64,000 nt of DNA from Blastocystis sp. subtype 4 (GCF_000743755.1 NW_014569540.1:1-64000), one strand, 5' to 3'. Counted from the first letter of the stretch, positions 6,681 to 50,271 are shown. A program made the numbers and translations. The notes: generated by a model not told the origin, from the sequence alone.

Positions 6681-7266
6681 ATGTCGACTGAAAAGTTGAT
6701 TGAAGTAACTACCAAACCGTCAGATCATGAGTTCTGTATTCAAGTGCAACTCTCAGAACTAATTGAGTCTGTCAAGGTAAAGTCTTCAGGAACAACAATT
6801 GGAGATACAAATTATGGAAAGCTGCATGGTCCTCAGATCTTTATTTCGTCAGCTGGCCAATATCTGGGAATGATGGAGTACCGAGATGGAATTGAGGATG
6901 GAAATGCTGTAACTGTTGGTCCTAGTAATGCAATTATGGCAGAAGGGCGGTTTGAAAATGGTGAATGCATTTTTGTCAAAATGTACAGAGATGGTTTCAT
7001 ATATTCCTGGGAAAAGAATCCAGAAAATGGATTCTCTTATAAGATAGAGGATCCTCAGGTAAGGTGTTCGATTCAGTTTAATGTGGACAAAGATGGATAT
7101 GGATGTGGAGAATCTCTTGCTATGATTCAAGGTGAACAGAAAACTGTGACTCTTAGGAAGGGCACTGTAATGAGAGAATCTAGGCCTTGGTCATATTGGC
7201 TTGTTGTTGTTGGTATCATTGTTTTTGGACTTATCGCTGGTGCAATTCTATGGAAGAAGTATTGGT
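6681..7266 (+). CDS. Tail-anchored protein with MORN-like beta repeats; stop made by polyadenylation
   Basis: Intronless frame with GKLHG/YRDG/GRFENG MORN-like motifs and a C-terminal TM helix (WLVVVGIIVFGLIAGAILWKKYW). The in-frame T at 7266 lies 4 nt before TGTTTGTT. Confidence 0.55.
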
Positions 7267-21758: not shown

Positions 21759-22030
21759 TGTACAGGAATTGTCAATGCAGGAGAAATCGTTGTATGCGTA
21801 TGAAAACTACTTTATCGAATTACAAATAGAGATGTTGATTATTCGCGAGGACAAATCAATGTACGTACTAATTCCTAGTCACTCATTCATAGCCACGGAA
21901 GGAGAAAGAGTTATTTATCACTCGTTTATTTCGTAACCTAGCGTATTTTCTATTCTTTGCTAGTCTTACAGTTGATTATGTATTGTCGATGATAGTTTCT
22001 TAATCCTAGGTGTACACATCTTATACCTCG
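21759..22030 (+). CDS. Micro-exon fragment of an unidentified gene (ends unresolved)
   Basis: Four consecutive GT..AG introns (21792-21829, 21861-21892, 21933-21963, 21980-22009) join 16-40 nt exons into an open frame VQELSMQEKSLDVDYSRGQINPRKEKELFITRLFLLQLIMCTHLIP. Confidence 0.4.
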
Positions 22031-22380
22031 TATGTAGACCAACTATGGGATGTCTTCATATCCTGTAATGTATCGTATTTGTTGTTACTGCTGTTTATGT
22101 CATGTGAGGATCCAGTATTTATGTTTATCTTCGTTATTGGAGTATGTTTTCCTTATTGAGGACTGAATATCAGTTCATTGGCGCGCGATGTTATACCATT
22201 TCTCTCCATCAGAAGTATCCAGTCAAGTGGGTAGTCAATCCAGCTCAATCATCTGTAAGAAACATGTATAGGATACCATATAGCTTTATTCCTTGATCTT
22301 CTTCTTTGGCTTTTTTATCTTGGATCAGATTGTCGAACTATGGAAATCTGATTAAAATGTTTATTAAGAAACAGAAACGG

Positions 22381-25350
22381 TCACTTCGAGAAAGGAAACA
22401 TGATATGCTGACTAGCATACTCCGCTGCTGTCTCTGCTTCATCAGTCCATCCAATCTCTCTCATAAACTCATTCTATCCCTCATCCTCCATGTTCATCAT
22501 TACATCACTCATATTCTTCGTGCTTTCAACTCCTAGCAAGTTGCTAATATCCAGGTCCTATTTCTCACACAACACAATCTCACTAACACTCACAGGAGCA
22601 TCCTTTTTATCCTTTTTCACACTCTCATCATCTTCATCTCCTCCTTTTCCCTTGTGAGGCAATTGATAAATCTCTTTCAAAGAACGAGGAGGTAAACCCG
22701 CTGGTAAGGATATATTAAACTCTTCACTAAACTGTTTCATCATATCCTCAGCATCTGAAGACAGAGAAATAGCCTTCAATTCATTTCAATTCATATCCTT
22801 ACATCATCTTCAACTACACTACCCAAATGACACAATTCGGACCGAATATGATCCAGACCCAATTGTTCCCGAATCATTTGTTGTTCCGAAATCTGTTCAG
22901 GAGTCAGCATATTGCTAATGTTATCAAGAAAACGTTTAACACTTGGATTTATGTACTCATCAGGAATGATAGGGTCAATAGATACACCCTTCTCCGTGAA
23001 CTGTAGTGGAATATAAGGAACTGTGTTCCGTAATGGAGCTGAAGGATTGTAAGGAAGCGTATTTGGAGTATACACAAGGAACTTATCAGCAGGATCATCA
23101 GATGAAGAGAGCTGACGGAACTGACCTCGATCCATCATAATCTTCAATTGCTGCTCGTTTGTGATGTGTTCAGAAGCTTCGTATTGAGAGAGTTCTTCTA
23201 ATGATGCTGGTGATTTTGGTAACTTCACCTCTGTGATAGTAATACCATTGAAAAGACAGCGGTCATTTGCAAGAATCTTCTGAATAGTTGGTGTTCCATC
23301 AGCACAAGCTCTTTGTACGATCTGAGGGAATCTACTAATGTAAGCAACATTATTCAAATCATCAACACACAACATAAGGATCAGCGAGAAGATTATCGCT
23401 TCATTGAATGGAAAAGTATCAAGAATCCATTCTAGCCTCGATCGCTCATCATCTCCCATTCTATCAATACTTACATAATTGACTCACTGTCTGTTACATC
23501 CGCACATTCACGAATAATTGTCATCAAACGCTCCAAACGCTCATTTACCACATCACTCATTGGCTCCAATATCTGACGTAATTCCTCCTGTGTAGTGGGA
23601 CGTCTCTTCATAATCTGAAGGATTCGCATCAAAGGAAGTACGTACTGCACACTTTCATCGTTCCTATAGTAAATACCCATCAAAGAGCTTACTCTCGAGC
23701 AACGACATCACGCCAATAGTACAATGACAAAAACAGTGTTTTATTGTTCAAACCCAATTGTAACCCCAATCTAATTTCTGATTCCAATCCTCATGAATTA
23801 CTCCGCAATTGCAGTTTCACCTGTTTCGTATGTTTGAACGGGTTTATGATAAGTTAGCAAACACAACTCATTACAAGCAGCCAGAGCTTCCACCATCTAT
23901 TTATCATATCATAAGACAGTCCTTACTCGATTTGCATGTGCATCACTCAGATTCCTCAAACGTTCTACCAACCCATACGTGATGTGTTGAAGGAAATGAG
24001 TTAGCTGACGCATGAATAATTGCATTTCAGGAGTCAATGGCCGAGTTCTAGAATTCATTCACATTCCTTATCATGACCTCCAATCAGCTCTCATATATCG
24101 CATATTTACATACTCCTTCACGGTAGATAATACTACCTCGCCAAAACCTATTTTCTTCTCACCCAGAAGAGTGAGAGCAACTTGGAGATCGAATAGGTTT
24201 ACCATAAATACCCCAAAATCACGTTGTAACCAGAGTAACTGATTTTCAGCGTTAAACATTATTTTTAAAACAGACGGATCTGTGAAGAGCTCATTCAGAA
24301 GCCAACAACTGTCATGACACTCAATTGCATCAATCGCATAATCAGCAGTTGGAGATGAAATCTATTTTAATCACATCATTCCTAGAGTTCTACCATAATA
24401 ATACTAGAATAACCAAGATAGGAACGATAGCGATGCTGAATCACACTCACACTGATCATGGGACAATTACGTAACTGAACAACCAAATCACGAATTCCGT
24501 TTTCTGTTGTTATCATTGTGAAGGGAGTTTCATCCAGAGATCGTAAAGGCGCCACTTCGAATTCACCATTGATCTCCCAATCAGAGTACTCGATATCTAA
24601 ATGAAAGAAACGAAACAGAAGTACTGTGAATTTCGTAAGAATAGGGATTCCGATAAATGCTGATCAGTTGGGTTTTGGGATCAATACCCAGTTCACGCAT
24701 ATAATCATCCTGAAAGAAGATTCCAGGAATACGAGAGATTTCTTCATTTTTCCAAGGACAACGGGTATTATGTTTGATTCGGAGTTTGGGAGCAAAATTT
24801 AAATCCATAGCATCCACACGATCGTCGAATTGATTCTGCGGTTTTCCTTTAGTCAAATTGTACTTGATGAGAGGAAAATGGATGCGCTTCTGAGTATCTT
24901 CAATGAGTTTCTGGACAATTATAACAGACTTCTTACACTCACTTCACAAGACTCGACACTCGTATCTTGAGATTCTGAAGAAGACAGGCACGACTCTACC
25001 AATGCAAAAATAAAGTCCTCTAGTTGGCTAATAATTTCGTAATCACCTCCGGATTCCAATTCAGGAATCTCCAGGAGACTCAGACCGTTATTCGGTTCGT
25101 ACTATATATAACACTCCACACCAATGAGAACGAGGTCAAAGAGACATTGAAAGCCGGAAATACTCTGTGTTTTAACAAAGTTACACATTGAGGTAAACTC
25201 TGGAAAAGCAGTAAAGTAGTTGTAATCCCCCAGTACTGGAATGCTGTCACATAGCTAATCATCATTCAGGGAGAAAGTAAGCACATTTCGAGACATGGTT
25301 AACAAGGACTCTATGGAGTTATCTCCACCCTCGTTCGGTTGTTCAGACAT
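22381..25350 (-). CDS. RRP6/EXOSC10 homolog, predicted catalytically inactive
   Basis: KPQNQF..FAPKLRIKHN, NPYSYEI, YRSYLG, LNELFTDPSVLKI, WLQRDFGVFMVNLFD, ADWRTRPLTPEM, and HRDC-like DESVQYVLP. Spliced end at TGA 22381. Confidence 0.85.
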
Positions 25351-25388
25351 GAGTTCAGGAGAAATACTCATTCCTAGAATATGGGAAA

Positions 25389-28300
25389 TTAAAAATGAGG
25401 TTTCGAACAAACAAAGCAACTATCCAAACTAACAGTACCGTAGATAATCTGAACAGAACGAGCATATGCAAGGGAAGGAGATCCGTCGGCGTACATATAA
25501 TCTGGTTTAATCCCAAACGCAAAACGCGTTCTCAAACAATGTGGAGGCTGAACAGAAGGAACCGATATTGACTGGTCCTGTTTTTGTTTAGCCTCATTTG
25601 CACGACACAAAAGTGCCTCGTAATATAATGGAGCATTTGATGCAATTTCCAACGCACACATACTAATGGCACGATAAAACACCTACAAATGATAAACTCC
25701 AGATTATCCTTACTTCCTTTGAAGGTGAGGTTAGGAATTCTTTACAACGGAACATAAGTGGACCATAATTAGGTTCAGTTAATGCATACCTTCTACATAG
25801 GAACATGAGCGTGGCATTGGACTGAAGCAATGATGCTAGAAGATGTCGATTCGGGCACTTATAGAAAGATAAAAAGAGATCAGAAGATAGCATTAAGATT
25901 CGCAATGCCTATTATGAAGTTCTTCTTCCAAACTTACCTCAATAATTGAGTCCCCATATTGAGGAGTAAAAAAGAGTGCAAAATTCAAACATTTTGCGGC
26001 ATTTTCAAGATGGAATAAATGGGAAGTGGGGTTCAGAAAGATACGAGCTCCTTCACACCATACTTCACCTGACTTGGCGACATGTCGTAATGACTTACGG
26101 AACACAACCATGGCAGCCTCAGGACCACAACATCTTGATATTAGTGGAAGAGAAAGCGAATACTGATGGACGAGATGGATACATGCAGCCCAGAGACGAC
26201 CAGCACCAACATGCCGACGAATAGCAACAACACTAAGACCTAACGCTTCAATGAATCGTTCTCGTTGACACTAAGAATGATAAAGAGGTAGCACACATAC
26301 CAACTGAAGGACATATTCGAGTTCTAATTTCCATTCATCAGGATAATCAACAATGGCTCGATTTAAAATAGCACAAGCAAGAGGTTGATCATGGCAGAAA
26401 AAGGCCACTTTACTGTACTCCAAAAGTACCTGATTCTTTAACTTCGGAGGAGCCATAATCAATGCATGGAGTGTAAACTAGAGATAAATCATTAGTGTAT
26501 CGTAATACACGAAGAGCAGTAACTCGATAACCCAATATACATGCACCTCGACCTAGCAATGCAAAGACTTTCCATCGTAAGTTCTCATGACATTCAGCAA
26601 GAGCGTATTTAGTATCTTCAATAAGACGACGTTGAAATAGTCTACATTCCTTAAAGAAGTTAATCATATCATGAGTCTATTCATCAGGTCTTTATCAATC
26701 ACTAACACGAATTGCATCATTATGATGAATTGCTAAGAGGAATCGTAAAGTGTATTGAAGACGAATGTAGTAAGCCTTCCAGGTAATATCATTTGTGAGA
26801 CATTTAAGAGCTTCTGTCATTATACTATCAAACTCACATGTATCAATAGACGTGGTGTTCTGATGCCATTCAACAAAACTCTTGTGTTGAATCACATGCA
26901 ACGAAAAGAACCATAATGGTCCATATTTTGGGAATCGAGATAATGCATGAGGTATCATATGAAGGAATGATTCATATTTACTTGAATGTAATTGGAATTC
27001 CAAAAAATCCATATAAAAATTGCCAGTAAAAAAGTGAGGATTATTAGTCACAGATAGATAGTAATCATACGTACTCTTTTCAAATCCCATTCTAGCTAAA
27101 ACAAGAACACCATCCATCATCATCTTCACAGATTTCTGAGTATCAAGTTTATGCAATTCTGCGACCAGACGTAAAGTGGCTGGAAGATTAAATAAGCGTT
27201 CTTCGACTTTTAGACTCTTCTGTAGGATTGCCTCATTGTGAGGAATTTGAATACGCGAAGCAGCAAGAATATTATGAGCATTTCCATACTCACCACATTC
27301 CATTTCCAAACGAGCAAACTCCAACCAGATTAAAGGATCGGAAGGATATAAAACGACCAGCTTGATAAAAATGAGGCGAGCTTCACGGAAATGACATTCT
27401 CGCTTAGCAGCTACAGCCTCTTCAATTTGACTATGAATCCATTCTGGGTCACTATTGTGTGTGCAAACTGGATGTGGTGATGATGTTAACTGCTGAGCAA
27501 ATTCATGTTCTTCCCATATCTCCTTATACGGAGATTGCTTCCACAGAAATAGACGTGTGAGAGATATATAGGGGTCAACCACACGATTCGTTGGAGTACG
27601 AACACCATAGTTCTGAGGTGTTGAAGGAACATTCTGAACTCGTGGTGATATGCTGAACGATGAGAGCCATGACTGATTAGGATCCCGATCCCAACTAGAA
27701 TGAGATTCACTAGTCATGATGGAATGAGGAGTGGTTGTGAGAGAAGAATAATGTGGAGATGATGAAACAGGATAGCGAGGATGATATGTATTGAAATCTC
27801 TAGGATACTCGACTCTATCAGAGTAGATATATGGGTCATCATATTTCGTATTCACAGAATAAAATGATTGTTTCACTCTAGGATCTTCGAAAGATTGAAC
27901 AGACTCGGGGAGATAGGAATACGCAGTCTCGTAGTCAGATACAGGATAACTTAAACGAGATGGTTCGTCATAATTACGATAAGAGTCTGATTCATTCATT
28001 CCACTTAACTGACTCCGTGAACGAAGTCGAGAGCAAGGTTCAAAAAGATTCTCTCTTGGTTCATATAAACGATTTGTTCCTTCTCGAAGTGAAGTTGAAG
28101 ATGTGGGGTATCGATCATAGGAATACCAAGTTGCATCTGTCAAAGGAATATGATTATGGTACAACGCATAATCAGCACGATATTCAGGTTCTACGTGGAG
28201 AGTATTTCCTTGAAAGAGGCCCGAGCGATTTGAAGGTGTAGAAGAATAACCAGTCTTGGTAACATAGGGCATATGAGTAACACTGGGAGAAGAGGAAGAC

Positions 28301-50198: not shown

Positions 50199-50271
50199 TG
50201 GAGGAGAGGGGCATCGATCCCCTTACCTCTCGCATGCTAAGCGAGCGCTCTACCATCTGAGCTACACCCCC
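50199..50271 (-). tRNA. tRNA-Ala(AGC)
   Basis: GGGGGTGTAGCTCAGATGGTAGAGCGCTCGCTTAGCATGCGAGAGGTAAGGGGATCGATGCCCCTCTCCTCCA folds as a cloverleaf with anticodon AGC and G3:U70; downstream T-run terminator. Confidence 0.95.

What the first reader, a model, noticed from the sequence alone, without database searches (positions are those of the whole stretch)
23985..24460. RRP6/EXOSC10 homolog has lost every DEDD-Y catalytic residue
Seen: Exo I reads ISVSVIQHRYRSY (canonical FAVDLEHHSYRS: D>S, E>I). Exo II reads FNAENQLLWLQ (HGADSDIEWLQ: D>Q). Exo III reads MQLFMRQLTHF (MLSYARDDTHY: Y>F, D>L). Flanking residues stay conserved and the spliced frame appears intact. Inference: a retained pseudo-nuclease scaffold. 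This is notable in a lineage where some stop codons sit at the poly(A) junction and 3' trimming would be dangerous; that link is speculative.
Basis: partly seen in the sequence, partly recalled or inferred. Interest (0 to 1): 0.75.

Follow-up and report, generated by a model that had tools for sequence, protein, structure and literature searches.

The report
Dead Rrp6 twin beside active copy
The gut protist Blastocystis has two copies of the RNA-trimming enzyme Rrp6, and this one, which is spliced and conserved but has lost all five catalytic residues, likely works as a non-cutting adaptor while its twin likely does the trimming.

Summary
Observation confirmed. The minus-strand gene 25371-22378 (14 exons, 828 aa; 13 of 13 introns seen in contigs of one RNA run) encodes an Rrp6/EXOSC10-fold protein whose DEDD-Y reads S-I-Q-F-L. 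The four acidic residues are gone in all five Blastocystis lineages found and the Tyr in at least four, while 180 of 181 other Rrp6 proteins keep DEDYD. The frame is intact and under purifying selection. However, a canonical paralogue exists: ST1 NandII encodes both a dead copy (OAO13010.1) and a DEDYD copy (OAO15254.1), and the two gene types share 8 of 11 intron positions. Blastocystis has therefore not lost Rrp6 catalytic residues, and the poly(A)-stop link loses its basis. The dead copy keeps two C-terminal protist motifs and very constrained N-terminal surfaces. The canonical copy keeps DEDYD, a Pfam-level PMC2NT domain and the basic tail. Best reading: an adaptor or scaffold of nuclear RNA surveillance (inferred, not tested). 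Extras: the one long intron holds a conserved C/D snoRNA like Z30, a U6 methylation guide; degenerate Rrp6 copies also occur in three other eukaryote groups, not as one clade. Earlier scan notes show dead Rrp6-like genes only in retroelements.

The parts
22378..25371 (-). Whole gene: 14 exons, 828 aa, catalytically dead Rrp6/EXOSC10 paralogue (start codon at 25371 inferred; RNA contig reaches 25338)
24982..25254 (-). PMC2NT-like N-terminal helical region (aa 30-110), 77-78% identical between the window and three other lineages; no Pfam PMC2NT hit
24626..24754 (-). Insert and lead-in before the EXO domain (aa 176-218), 93-98% identical among dead copies; about 22 residues of it are absent from the canonical paralogue
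23960..24534 (-). EXO (DEDD-Y type) domain, aa 240-410, PF01612
24439..24447 (-). Exo I positions: S269 for Asp, I271 for Glu
24239..24241 (-). Exo II position: Q327 for Asp
24002..24016 (-). Exo III positions: F392 for Tyr, L396 for Asp
23495..23748 (-). HRDC domain, aa 461-535, PF00570
23332..23474 (-). The only long intron (143 nt; the other 12 are 28-32 nt); long (143-460 nt) at the same position and phase in all five lineages; retention would give a stop right after HRDC
23377..23457 (-). Predicted box C/D snoRNA like Z30: C box 23452-23446, 10-nt guide 23395-23386, D box 23384-23381
23034..23090 (-). 19-residue run (aa 623-641) invariant in four full-length dead copies, inside a region with no match outside Blastocystis
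22648..22692 (-). C-terminal motif B (PxSLxEIY), shared with canonical protist Rrp6 proteins, not scored in the Blastocystis canonical copy
22438..22509 (-). C-terminal motif C (FMxxIGW, split by the last intron), followed by an acidic end with no basic tail
22366..22383 (-). DNA-encoded TGA (22383-22381), poly(A) site at 22378, and a downstream element with one mismatch to TGTTTGTT (22373-22366)
   Evidence: element described in PMC5608401

Best explanation
This gene encodes an Rrp6 duplicate that lacks all five catalytic residues and likely serves as a non-cutting adaptor or scaffold in nuclear RNA surveillance, while a second, canonical Rrp6 gene likely does the 3' trimming. Shown: loss of DEDD-Y in five lineages, intact spliced frame, purifying selection, a DEDYD paralogue in the same ST1 strain, and common descent of the two genes from one intron-rich ancestor. 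Inferred: the protein has no nuclease activity. Its EXO-HRDC module still folds and would sit on the exosome cap or a related RNP as Rrp6 does. Its most constrained parts (PMC2NT-like region, pre-EXO insert, invariant C-terminal runs, motifs B and C) would bind partners such as Rrp47/Mtr4 or the exosome core. Substrates it engages would pass to Dis3/Rrp44 or to the canonical twin instead of being trimmed on the spot. The pocket is remodelled with fixed hydrophobic residues, so it probably no longer holds an RNA 3' end in the catalytic pose. The gene likely also acts as host of a U6 methylation guide snoRNA.
For: Signature SIQFL, NIKFT, SIQFT, SMPFT, SIAFT in the five lineages, against DEDYD in 180 of 181 others. 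Of 66 columns at least 90% conserved in canonical Rrp6, 41 are kept in all dead copies, 18 are lost in all and 7 are mixed; the lost ones include the Gln before 'IS', the HG of Exo II and the Lys before the DWR motif. An AlphaFold model of the ST1 orthologue has pLDDT mostly above 90 over aa 191-520 and matches human RRP6 3saf at E 1.3e-30, TM 0.89 by target. Codon-model omega is 0.056 for the whole gene, 0.02-0.03 for the N-terminal part and 0.06-0.08 for EXO (4 sequences). Paralogue: L047 is DEDYD with 29-36 nt introns and TGTTTGTT after its stop; its close relatives include OAO15254.1 and KAK8826791.1 (NandII) and KAK8833126.1 (JDR). 8 of 11 L047 introns fall at the same column and phase as the window's; the maximum in 100,000 random draws was 4. 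Dead and canonical copies are sisters at SH-aLRT 93 and 95.5 when the N-terminus is included. Motifs B and C score 9-17 bits in the dead copies against none or about 2 in the canonical copy; last-50-residue pI is 4.1-5.6 against 10.0. Rrp47/C1D, Mtr4/Ski2, Csl4 and Dis3 domains are counted in Blastocystis genomes (PMC12129017 Table S5). Separate EAR, lasso and PMC2NT functions of yeast Rrp6: PMC5314766.
Against: No activity, binding or localisation was measured. The canonical copy already has Pfam PMC2NT, EXO, HRDC and a basic tail, so it may be a complete Rrp6 that needs no scaffold twin. The dead copy has no Pfam PMC2NT hit and no basic tail or obvious nuclear signal. Motifs B and C have no known partner, and a profile of the C-terminal region matched no solved structure, so an exosome-associating region was not identified in either copy. 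Motif A of protist Rrp6 is missing from both copies. The EXO+HRDC-only tree did not join the two Blastocystis copies, both branches are long, and the careful tree did not finish. Simple pairwise counts give a much weaker signal for EXO (dN/dS 0.37-0.71 among the three GC-rich lineages), and synonymous sites are saturated against the window. The canonical copy was not seen in the window's own strain.
Confidence: 0.55

Rival explanations
1. The dead copy has left the exosome and works as a stand-alone RNA- or protein-binding adaptor in another pathway, possibly in the cytoplasm, as dead RNase D-type domains do in EXD1 and Egalitarian (roles recalled).
For: Acidic C-terminus without the basic tail. 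No Pfam PMC2NT hit. About 170 residues after HRDC are conserved only within Blastocystis. The pocket is fixed in a new state. The canonical copy looks complete in domain terms. Egalitarian-BicD-RNA structures appear among the fold matches.
Against: It keeps the whole Rrp6 layout, including C-terminal motifs B and C that the canonical twin has let decay and that other protist Rrp6 proteins share. The N-terminal region stays alignable to the twin's PMC2NT (E 3.5e-9).
Confidence: 0.27
2. The dead copy occupies the Rrp6 site on the exosome or caps mRNA 3' ends to shield stop codons that are completed by the first A's of the poly(A) tail.
For: 26% of ST1 genes get their stop from polyadenylation (PMC5608401 passages). 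The dead copy is present in all five lineages found.
Against: A DEDYD Rrp6 coexists. Degenerate Rrp6 copies occur in 6 other loci of 80 and do not form one clade with the Blastocystis copy (p-AU 2.6e-6). A tortoise isolate from the clade without such stops also has two Rrp6-like proteins by InterPro count, though their residues were not seen. This gene's own stop is DNA-encoded.
Confidence: 0.08
3. The protein still cuts RNA using a rebuilt active site made of other residues, an active-site switch of the kind proposed for Maelstrom.
For: His273, Asp293, Asp297, Asp344, Asp379 and His398 are kept, and a new His (302) and Cys (429) are fixed in all dead copies. The Maelstrom precedent was seen only as a search listing (PMC2628886).
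Against: The kept residues are equally conserved in canonical Rrp6 as non-catalytic positions. The four metal-binding positions vary among lineages (S/N, I/M, Q/K/P/A, L/T), which is not what a new catalytic site would show.
Confidence: 0.05
4. The locus is kept mainly as the host transcript of the intronic U6-guide snoRNA, and the protein is a decaying relic.
For: The snoRNA is present in 7 of 7 dead-copy loci that cover the intron and not in the canonical locus. EXO diverges faster in the dead pair (74%) than in the canonical pair (84%), if those pairs come from the same two subtypes.
Against: No stop or frameshift in four full-length models. There are 13 invariant runs of 9-25 residues. Codon-model omega is about 0.06, and within-lineage differences are mostly synonymous.
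Confidence: 0.04

Closest known systems
Rrp6 / EXOSC10 (yeast Rrp6, human EXOSC10, Trypanosoma RRP6; PDB 3saf, 2hbj, 4nlb)
   Same: EXO plus HRDC domains, predicted fold (TM about 0.9 by target), N-terminal helical region, 41 of 66 strongly conserved core columns.
   Different: All five DEDD-Y residues and 13 more conserved positions are replaced; no Pfam PMC2NT hit; acidic end instead of the basic lasso; lineage-specific insert and C-terminal region; coexists with a canonical paralogue.
Blastocystis canonical Rrp6 (OAO15254.1, KAK8826791.1, locus L047)
   Same: Sister gene: 30% identity over 506 aligned residues, 8 of 11 intron positions shared.
   Different: It has DEDYD, Pfam PMC2NT and a basic tail. 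It lacks the insert, the long intron with the snoRNA and well-formed motifs B and C, and it lies at a locus with no other match to the window.
Pseudonucleases of RNA pathways: EXD1, Egalitarian, Maelstrom (DEDD fold), Ssd1 (Dis3L2 family), the inert nine-subunit exosome core
   Same: A nuclease fold kept without catalytic residues and used for binding (roles recalled; the inert core is stated in PMC5314766).
   Different: None is a full-length Rrp6 duplicate with HRDC and Rrp6 C-terminal motifs.
snoZ30 (Rfam RF00288), guide for U6 Am47
   Same: C box, C'-like ATGA, 10-nt guide and D box match the family consensus. Z30 is listed as the U6 Am47 guide in PMC2533012 (table passage).
   Different: Scores 26-29 bits against a gathering score of 50; shorter middle part; hosted in an Rrp6 paralogue.

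Membership tests
Rrp6/EXOSC10 | RNase D-type EXO domain (PF01612) | tested here: met
   Window exon E 4e-13; ST1 orthologue E 5e-19; fold match to 3saf
Rrp6/EXOSC10 | HRDC domain after EXO | tested here: met
   PF00570 above its cut-off in the window exon and in P0044
Rrp6/EXOSC10 | DEDD-Y catalytic residues | tested here: not met
   0 of 5 in the window model and in the four other lineage models; Tyr is kept in two further fragments, P0003 and P0030
Rrp6/EXOSC10 | N-terminal PMC2NT domain (Rrp47/Mtr4 docking) | tested here: inconclusive
   No PF08066 hit, but the region aligns to the paralogue's PF08066-positive N-terminus at E 3.5e-9 and is modelled as helices
Rrp6/EXOSC10 | Exosome-associating region in the C-terminal domain | tested here: inconclusive
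   Protist motifs B and C present; no match to any solved chain; low pLDDT there
Rrp6/EXOSC10 | Basic C-terminal lasso / nuclear localisation tail | tested here: not met
   2-4 K/R in the last 40 residues and pI 4.1-5.6 for the last 50, against 14-15 and 10.0 in the canonical copy
Rrp6/EXOSC10 | 3'-5' exoribonuclease activity and physical association with the exosome | not testable with these tools
snoZ30 / U6 Am47 guide (RF00288) | C and D boxes with conserved spacing | tested here: met
   GATGAG, ATGA and CTGA invariant in 5 of 5 lineages aligned
snoZ30 / U6 Am47 guide (RF00288) | Guide upstream of the D box equal to the family's U6-antisense element | tested here: met
   10 of 10 guide bases invariant and equal to the Rfam consensus; Blastocystis U6 itself was not obtained
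snoZ30 / U6 Am47 guide (RF00288) | Rfam gathering score | tested here: not met
   26.1-29 bits against 50; only 2 of 5 loci scanned gave the hit at E up to 3
snoZ30 / U6 Am47 guide (RF00288) | Stable small RNA and methylation of U6 | not testable with these tools
   Only assembled contigs of long RNA were available

The most novel reading that the evidence does not exclude
Blastocystis builds two kinds of nuclear exosome by swapping an active Rrp6 for a dedicated dead twin. The dead-capped form would thread RNA to Dis3 or leave it alone but never nibble 3' ends, which would spare mRNAs whose stop codon depends on the first A's of the tail. Such a non-catalytic Rrp6 subunit would have evolved at least three or four times in microbial eukaryotes, a natural separation of Rrp6's structural and catalytic jobs.
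Probability: 0.15. Interest if true: 0.8.

Novelty: new variant of a known kind. Interest (0 to 1): 0.5.

Why it matters
Rrp6 has catalytic and non-catalytic jobs that have been separated only with engineered mutants such as yeast D238N. A naturally dead, strongly conserved twin beside an intact copy lets those jobs be studied as two proteins in the commonest eukaryote of the human gut, and it points to uncharacterised protist C-terminal motifs. The repeated appearance of degenerate Rrp6 copies suggests a recurring route. It matters less than first thought, because the lineage has not given up a canonical Rrp6. Practical point: the NCBI name 'Exosome component 10' sits on the dead copy, and the canonical one is called only '3'-5' exonuclease'.

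Tried and rejected
No whole genome was held for the window, so the canonical copy could not be sought in this assembly, and no RNA evidence for it in the window's own strain was obtained. Alternative splicing that restores the acids: rejected, all junctions around the motifs are seen in RNA contigs. Pseudogene: rejected. One ancient clade of dead Rrp6: rejected at p-AU 2.6e-6 for 8 rows, but the group was named after trees had been seen and long branches are involved. The careful tree did not finish in the time given. The C-terminal region found no relative in solved structures or the Atlas (best feature score 0.76, TM up to 0.32). Complex prediction of dead with canonical copy was not available, so a heterodimer is untested. 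Other weak Rfam hits in the gene (TeloSII_ncR30, snoR20, SNORD14, Zeta-pan; E 0.06-3.8) were treated as chance. Runs X2, X3 and X7 covered only short unspliced pieces and say nothing on expression. Supplements of PMC5608401 were mostly not searched (9 files without text, 21 beyond the fetch limit) and could bear on novelty.

Full report
Observation. The finding lies in a minus-strand gene from 25371 to 22378. A model with 13 GT-AG introns gives 828 residues without a stop. Contigs of run X1 skip all 13 introns and end in poly(A) at 22378. Twelve introns are 28-32 nt and one is 143 nt; the long one is the least well supported joint. X1 is a single run, possibly of the same strain. The five catalytic columns read S269, I271, Q327, F392 and L396. 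The register has no gaps against human EXOSC10 chains (Exo I and II) and against 43 canonical proteins. Of 181 non-Blastocystis proteins read DEDYD and one is truncated; five C-terminal Blastocystis fragments without an EXO domain were left out of that count.

Organism and orthologues. Seven of the 8 hits were 64-76% identical to the EXO exon, and one of their clusters holds OAO13010.1, 'Exosome component 10' of Blastocystis ST1 NandII. The locus scan returned 8 dead-copy loci in five lineages: L003 (identical to the window over 1,902 coding bases), L001, L002, L004 and L043-L046. Downstream genes are shared between the window and L001, L002, L043 and L045. The window's 39% G+C fits ST4 (39.5% in PMC12129017); that is an inference. 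The signatures are SIQFL, NIKFT, SIQFT, SMPFT and SIAFT. Two further fragments keep the Tyr but no acid. Of 66 core columns at least 90% conserved in canonical proteins, 41 are kept in all dead copies, 18 are lost in all and 7 are mixed. Several lost positions are now fixed as Met or Phe.

Selection. Four full-length models have no stops. A codon model gives omega 0.056 overall, 0.02-0.03 for the N-terminal part and 0.06-0.08 for EXO. These values are rough. Synonymous sites are saturated against the window, and simple counts among the three GC-rich lineages give dN/dS 0.22-0.38 overall and 0.37-0.71 for EXO. Six non-independent pairs within one lineage show 3-9 synonymous against 0-2 non-synonymous changes. 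The most constrained parts are not the EXO domain (62-71% to the window) but the PMC2NT-like region (77-78%) and the pre-EXO insert (93-98%). There are 13 invariant runs of 9-25 residues. The model of the ST1 orthologue keeps the Rrp6 catalytic-module fold.

The paralogue. Locus L047 has 29-36 nt introns, TGTTTGTT after its stop, and DEDYD. A search with its EXO frame gave 116 hits. The cluster of one at 81% identity holds OAO15254.1 and KAK8826791.1 (NandII), KAK8833126.1 (JDR) and KAM7457331.1, all with intact motifs. One strain thus has both copies. Table S5 of PMC12129017 counts two Rrp6-like proteins (IPR045092) but one IPR049559 domain in ST4-BT1, ST1-JDR and ST3-NMH; it counts 4 and 2 in ST3-DL, 1 and 1 in NandII, 1, 2 and 0 Rrp6-like proteins in the three tortoise isolates, and 2 in Proteromonas. 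Rrp47/C1D is single in all eight Blastocystis genomes. The table gives counts, not residues. Eight of the 11 L047 introns match the window's in column and phase, against at most 4 in 100,000 random draws. At the one position checked, 64 of 71 other loci have no intron. Trees with the N-terminus join the two copies at SH-aLRT 93 (mixture model, quick search) and 95.5 (LG+G4). The EXO+HRDC-only tree did not join them. A duplication before the split of these subtypes is the likely history.

What each copy kept. The canonical copy has DEDYD, Pfam PMC2NT above its cut-off and a basic tail. The dead copy has the insert, about 170 residues after HRDC that match nothing outside Blastocystis, and motifs B and C. 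Those motifs occur in many canonical protist Rrp6 proteins (41 and 29 of 162 C-termini score 10 bits or more, dead and degenerate copies included) and have decayed in the canonical twin. It ends in an acidic tail. In yeast, PMC2NT binds Rrp47, residues 518-616 bind the exosome core, and the basic lasso binds RNA (PMC5314766, introduction and passages read). The complementary pattern suggests a division of labour, but which copy docks on the exosome is not known, and no exosome-associating region could be assigned.

Hidden snoRNA. The long intron after HRDC is 143-460 nt in all five lineages. It carries a C box, a C'-like ATGA, a 10-nt guide and a D box, invariant across five lineages whose other intron sequence differs. 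The guide plus D box occurs in 7 of 7 dead-copy loci that cover the intron, in none of the other 73 loci, and once in the window. Rfam's best match is snoZ30 at 26-29 bits, below the gathering score of 50. Z30 guides U6 Am47 (PMC2533012, table passage). Blastocystis U6 was not obtained and the RNA was not observed, so this is a prediction.

Other degenerate copies. Among the 80 loci, 61 read DEDYD (L047 included), 8 are Blastocystis dead copies, 6 are degenerate copies from three other, unidentified eukaryote groups (L013; L018 and L022; L025, L048 and L053), and 5 could not be read fully. L013 and L018 each group with a canonical protein at 99-100 support, and one clade of all degenerate copies is rejected. 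Whether those organisms also have canonical copies is not shown.

The poly(A)-stop idea. About 26% of ST1 genes use poly(A)-made stops (PMC5608401 passages), and tortoise isolates do not (PMC12129017 section 7). This gene has its own TGA, a canonical Rrp6 coexists, and degenerate copies occur elsewhere. The idea survives only in the narrower form given as the novel case.

Novelty. Searches of the held library found no paper with both 'Blastocystis' and 'RRP6' and none describing a naturally dead Rrp6 paralogue or this snoRNA; these were judged from listings and abstract starts. Most subscription papers are not searched, and most supplements of PMC5608401 were not seen. Roles of EXD1, Egalitarian and Ssd1 are recalled. 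Earlier notes of this scan concern dead Rrp6-like genes in retroelements and U6 guides in other hosts, not this gene.

Verdict. The feature is real and conserved and appears undescribed, but it is a pseudonuclease paralogue beside an intact enzyme, not a loss of Rrp6 from the lineage. New variant of a known kind; interest 0.5.

Noticed in passing
window 23377-23457 (-); L001 2134-2197, L002 about 6968-7041, L003 1243-1323, L004 about 1333-1405, L043 about 6775-6846: Conserved box C/D snoRNA like Z30 (U6 Am47 guide) in the only long intron of the dead Rrp6 gene; absent from the canonical paralogue.
   Followed up: partly
L013, L018, L022, L025, L048, L053: Rrp6 genes of other, unidentified eukaryotes lacking three or four of the five catalytic residues; the full-length ones keep the C-terminal protist motifs; not one clade with the Blastocystis copy.
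   Followed up: partly
window 23332-23474 (-): Retention of the long intron would stop the protein right after HRDC (542 aa). Two NCBI models of ST1 split the gene at this point (KAM7454068.1 and KAM7455548.1), probably an annotation artefact, but a short isoform is not excluded.
   Followed up: no
L002 4508-4573 (-): Weak match to the Dictyostelium C/D snoRNA DdR1 (27.9 bits, E 0.5) with C and D boxes, just upstream of the dead-copy gene.
   Followed up: no
proteins P0130-P0263: Three short C-terminal motifs (SPxL..E.L...AGW, PxSLxEIY, FMxxIGW) recur in many protist Rrp6 proteins but not in the 13 named animal and fungal ones checked; no Pfam or PDB match.
   Followed up: partly
window 22010-22329 (+): A convergent spliced gene on the plus strand ends within about 50 nt of the Rrp6 gene's poly(A) site.
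   Followed up: no
window 50199-50271 (-): One tRNA gene, the only Rfam match at gathering score in the window.
   Followed up: no
window about 25400-27000 (-): The upstream neighbour is a spliced gene of predicted helical-repeat character (read by eye); only a weak DUF1561 hit below cut-off.
   Followed up: no
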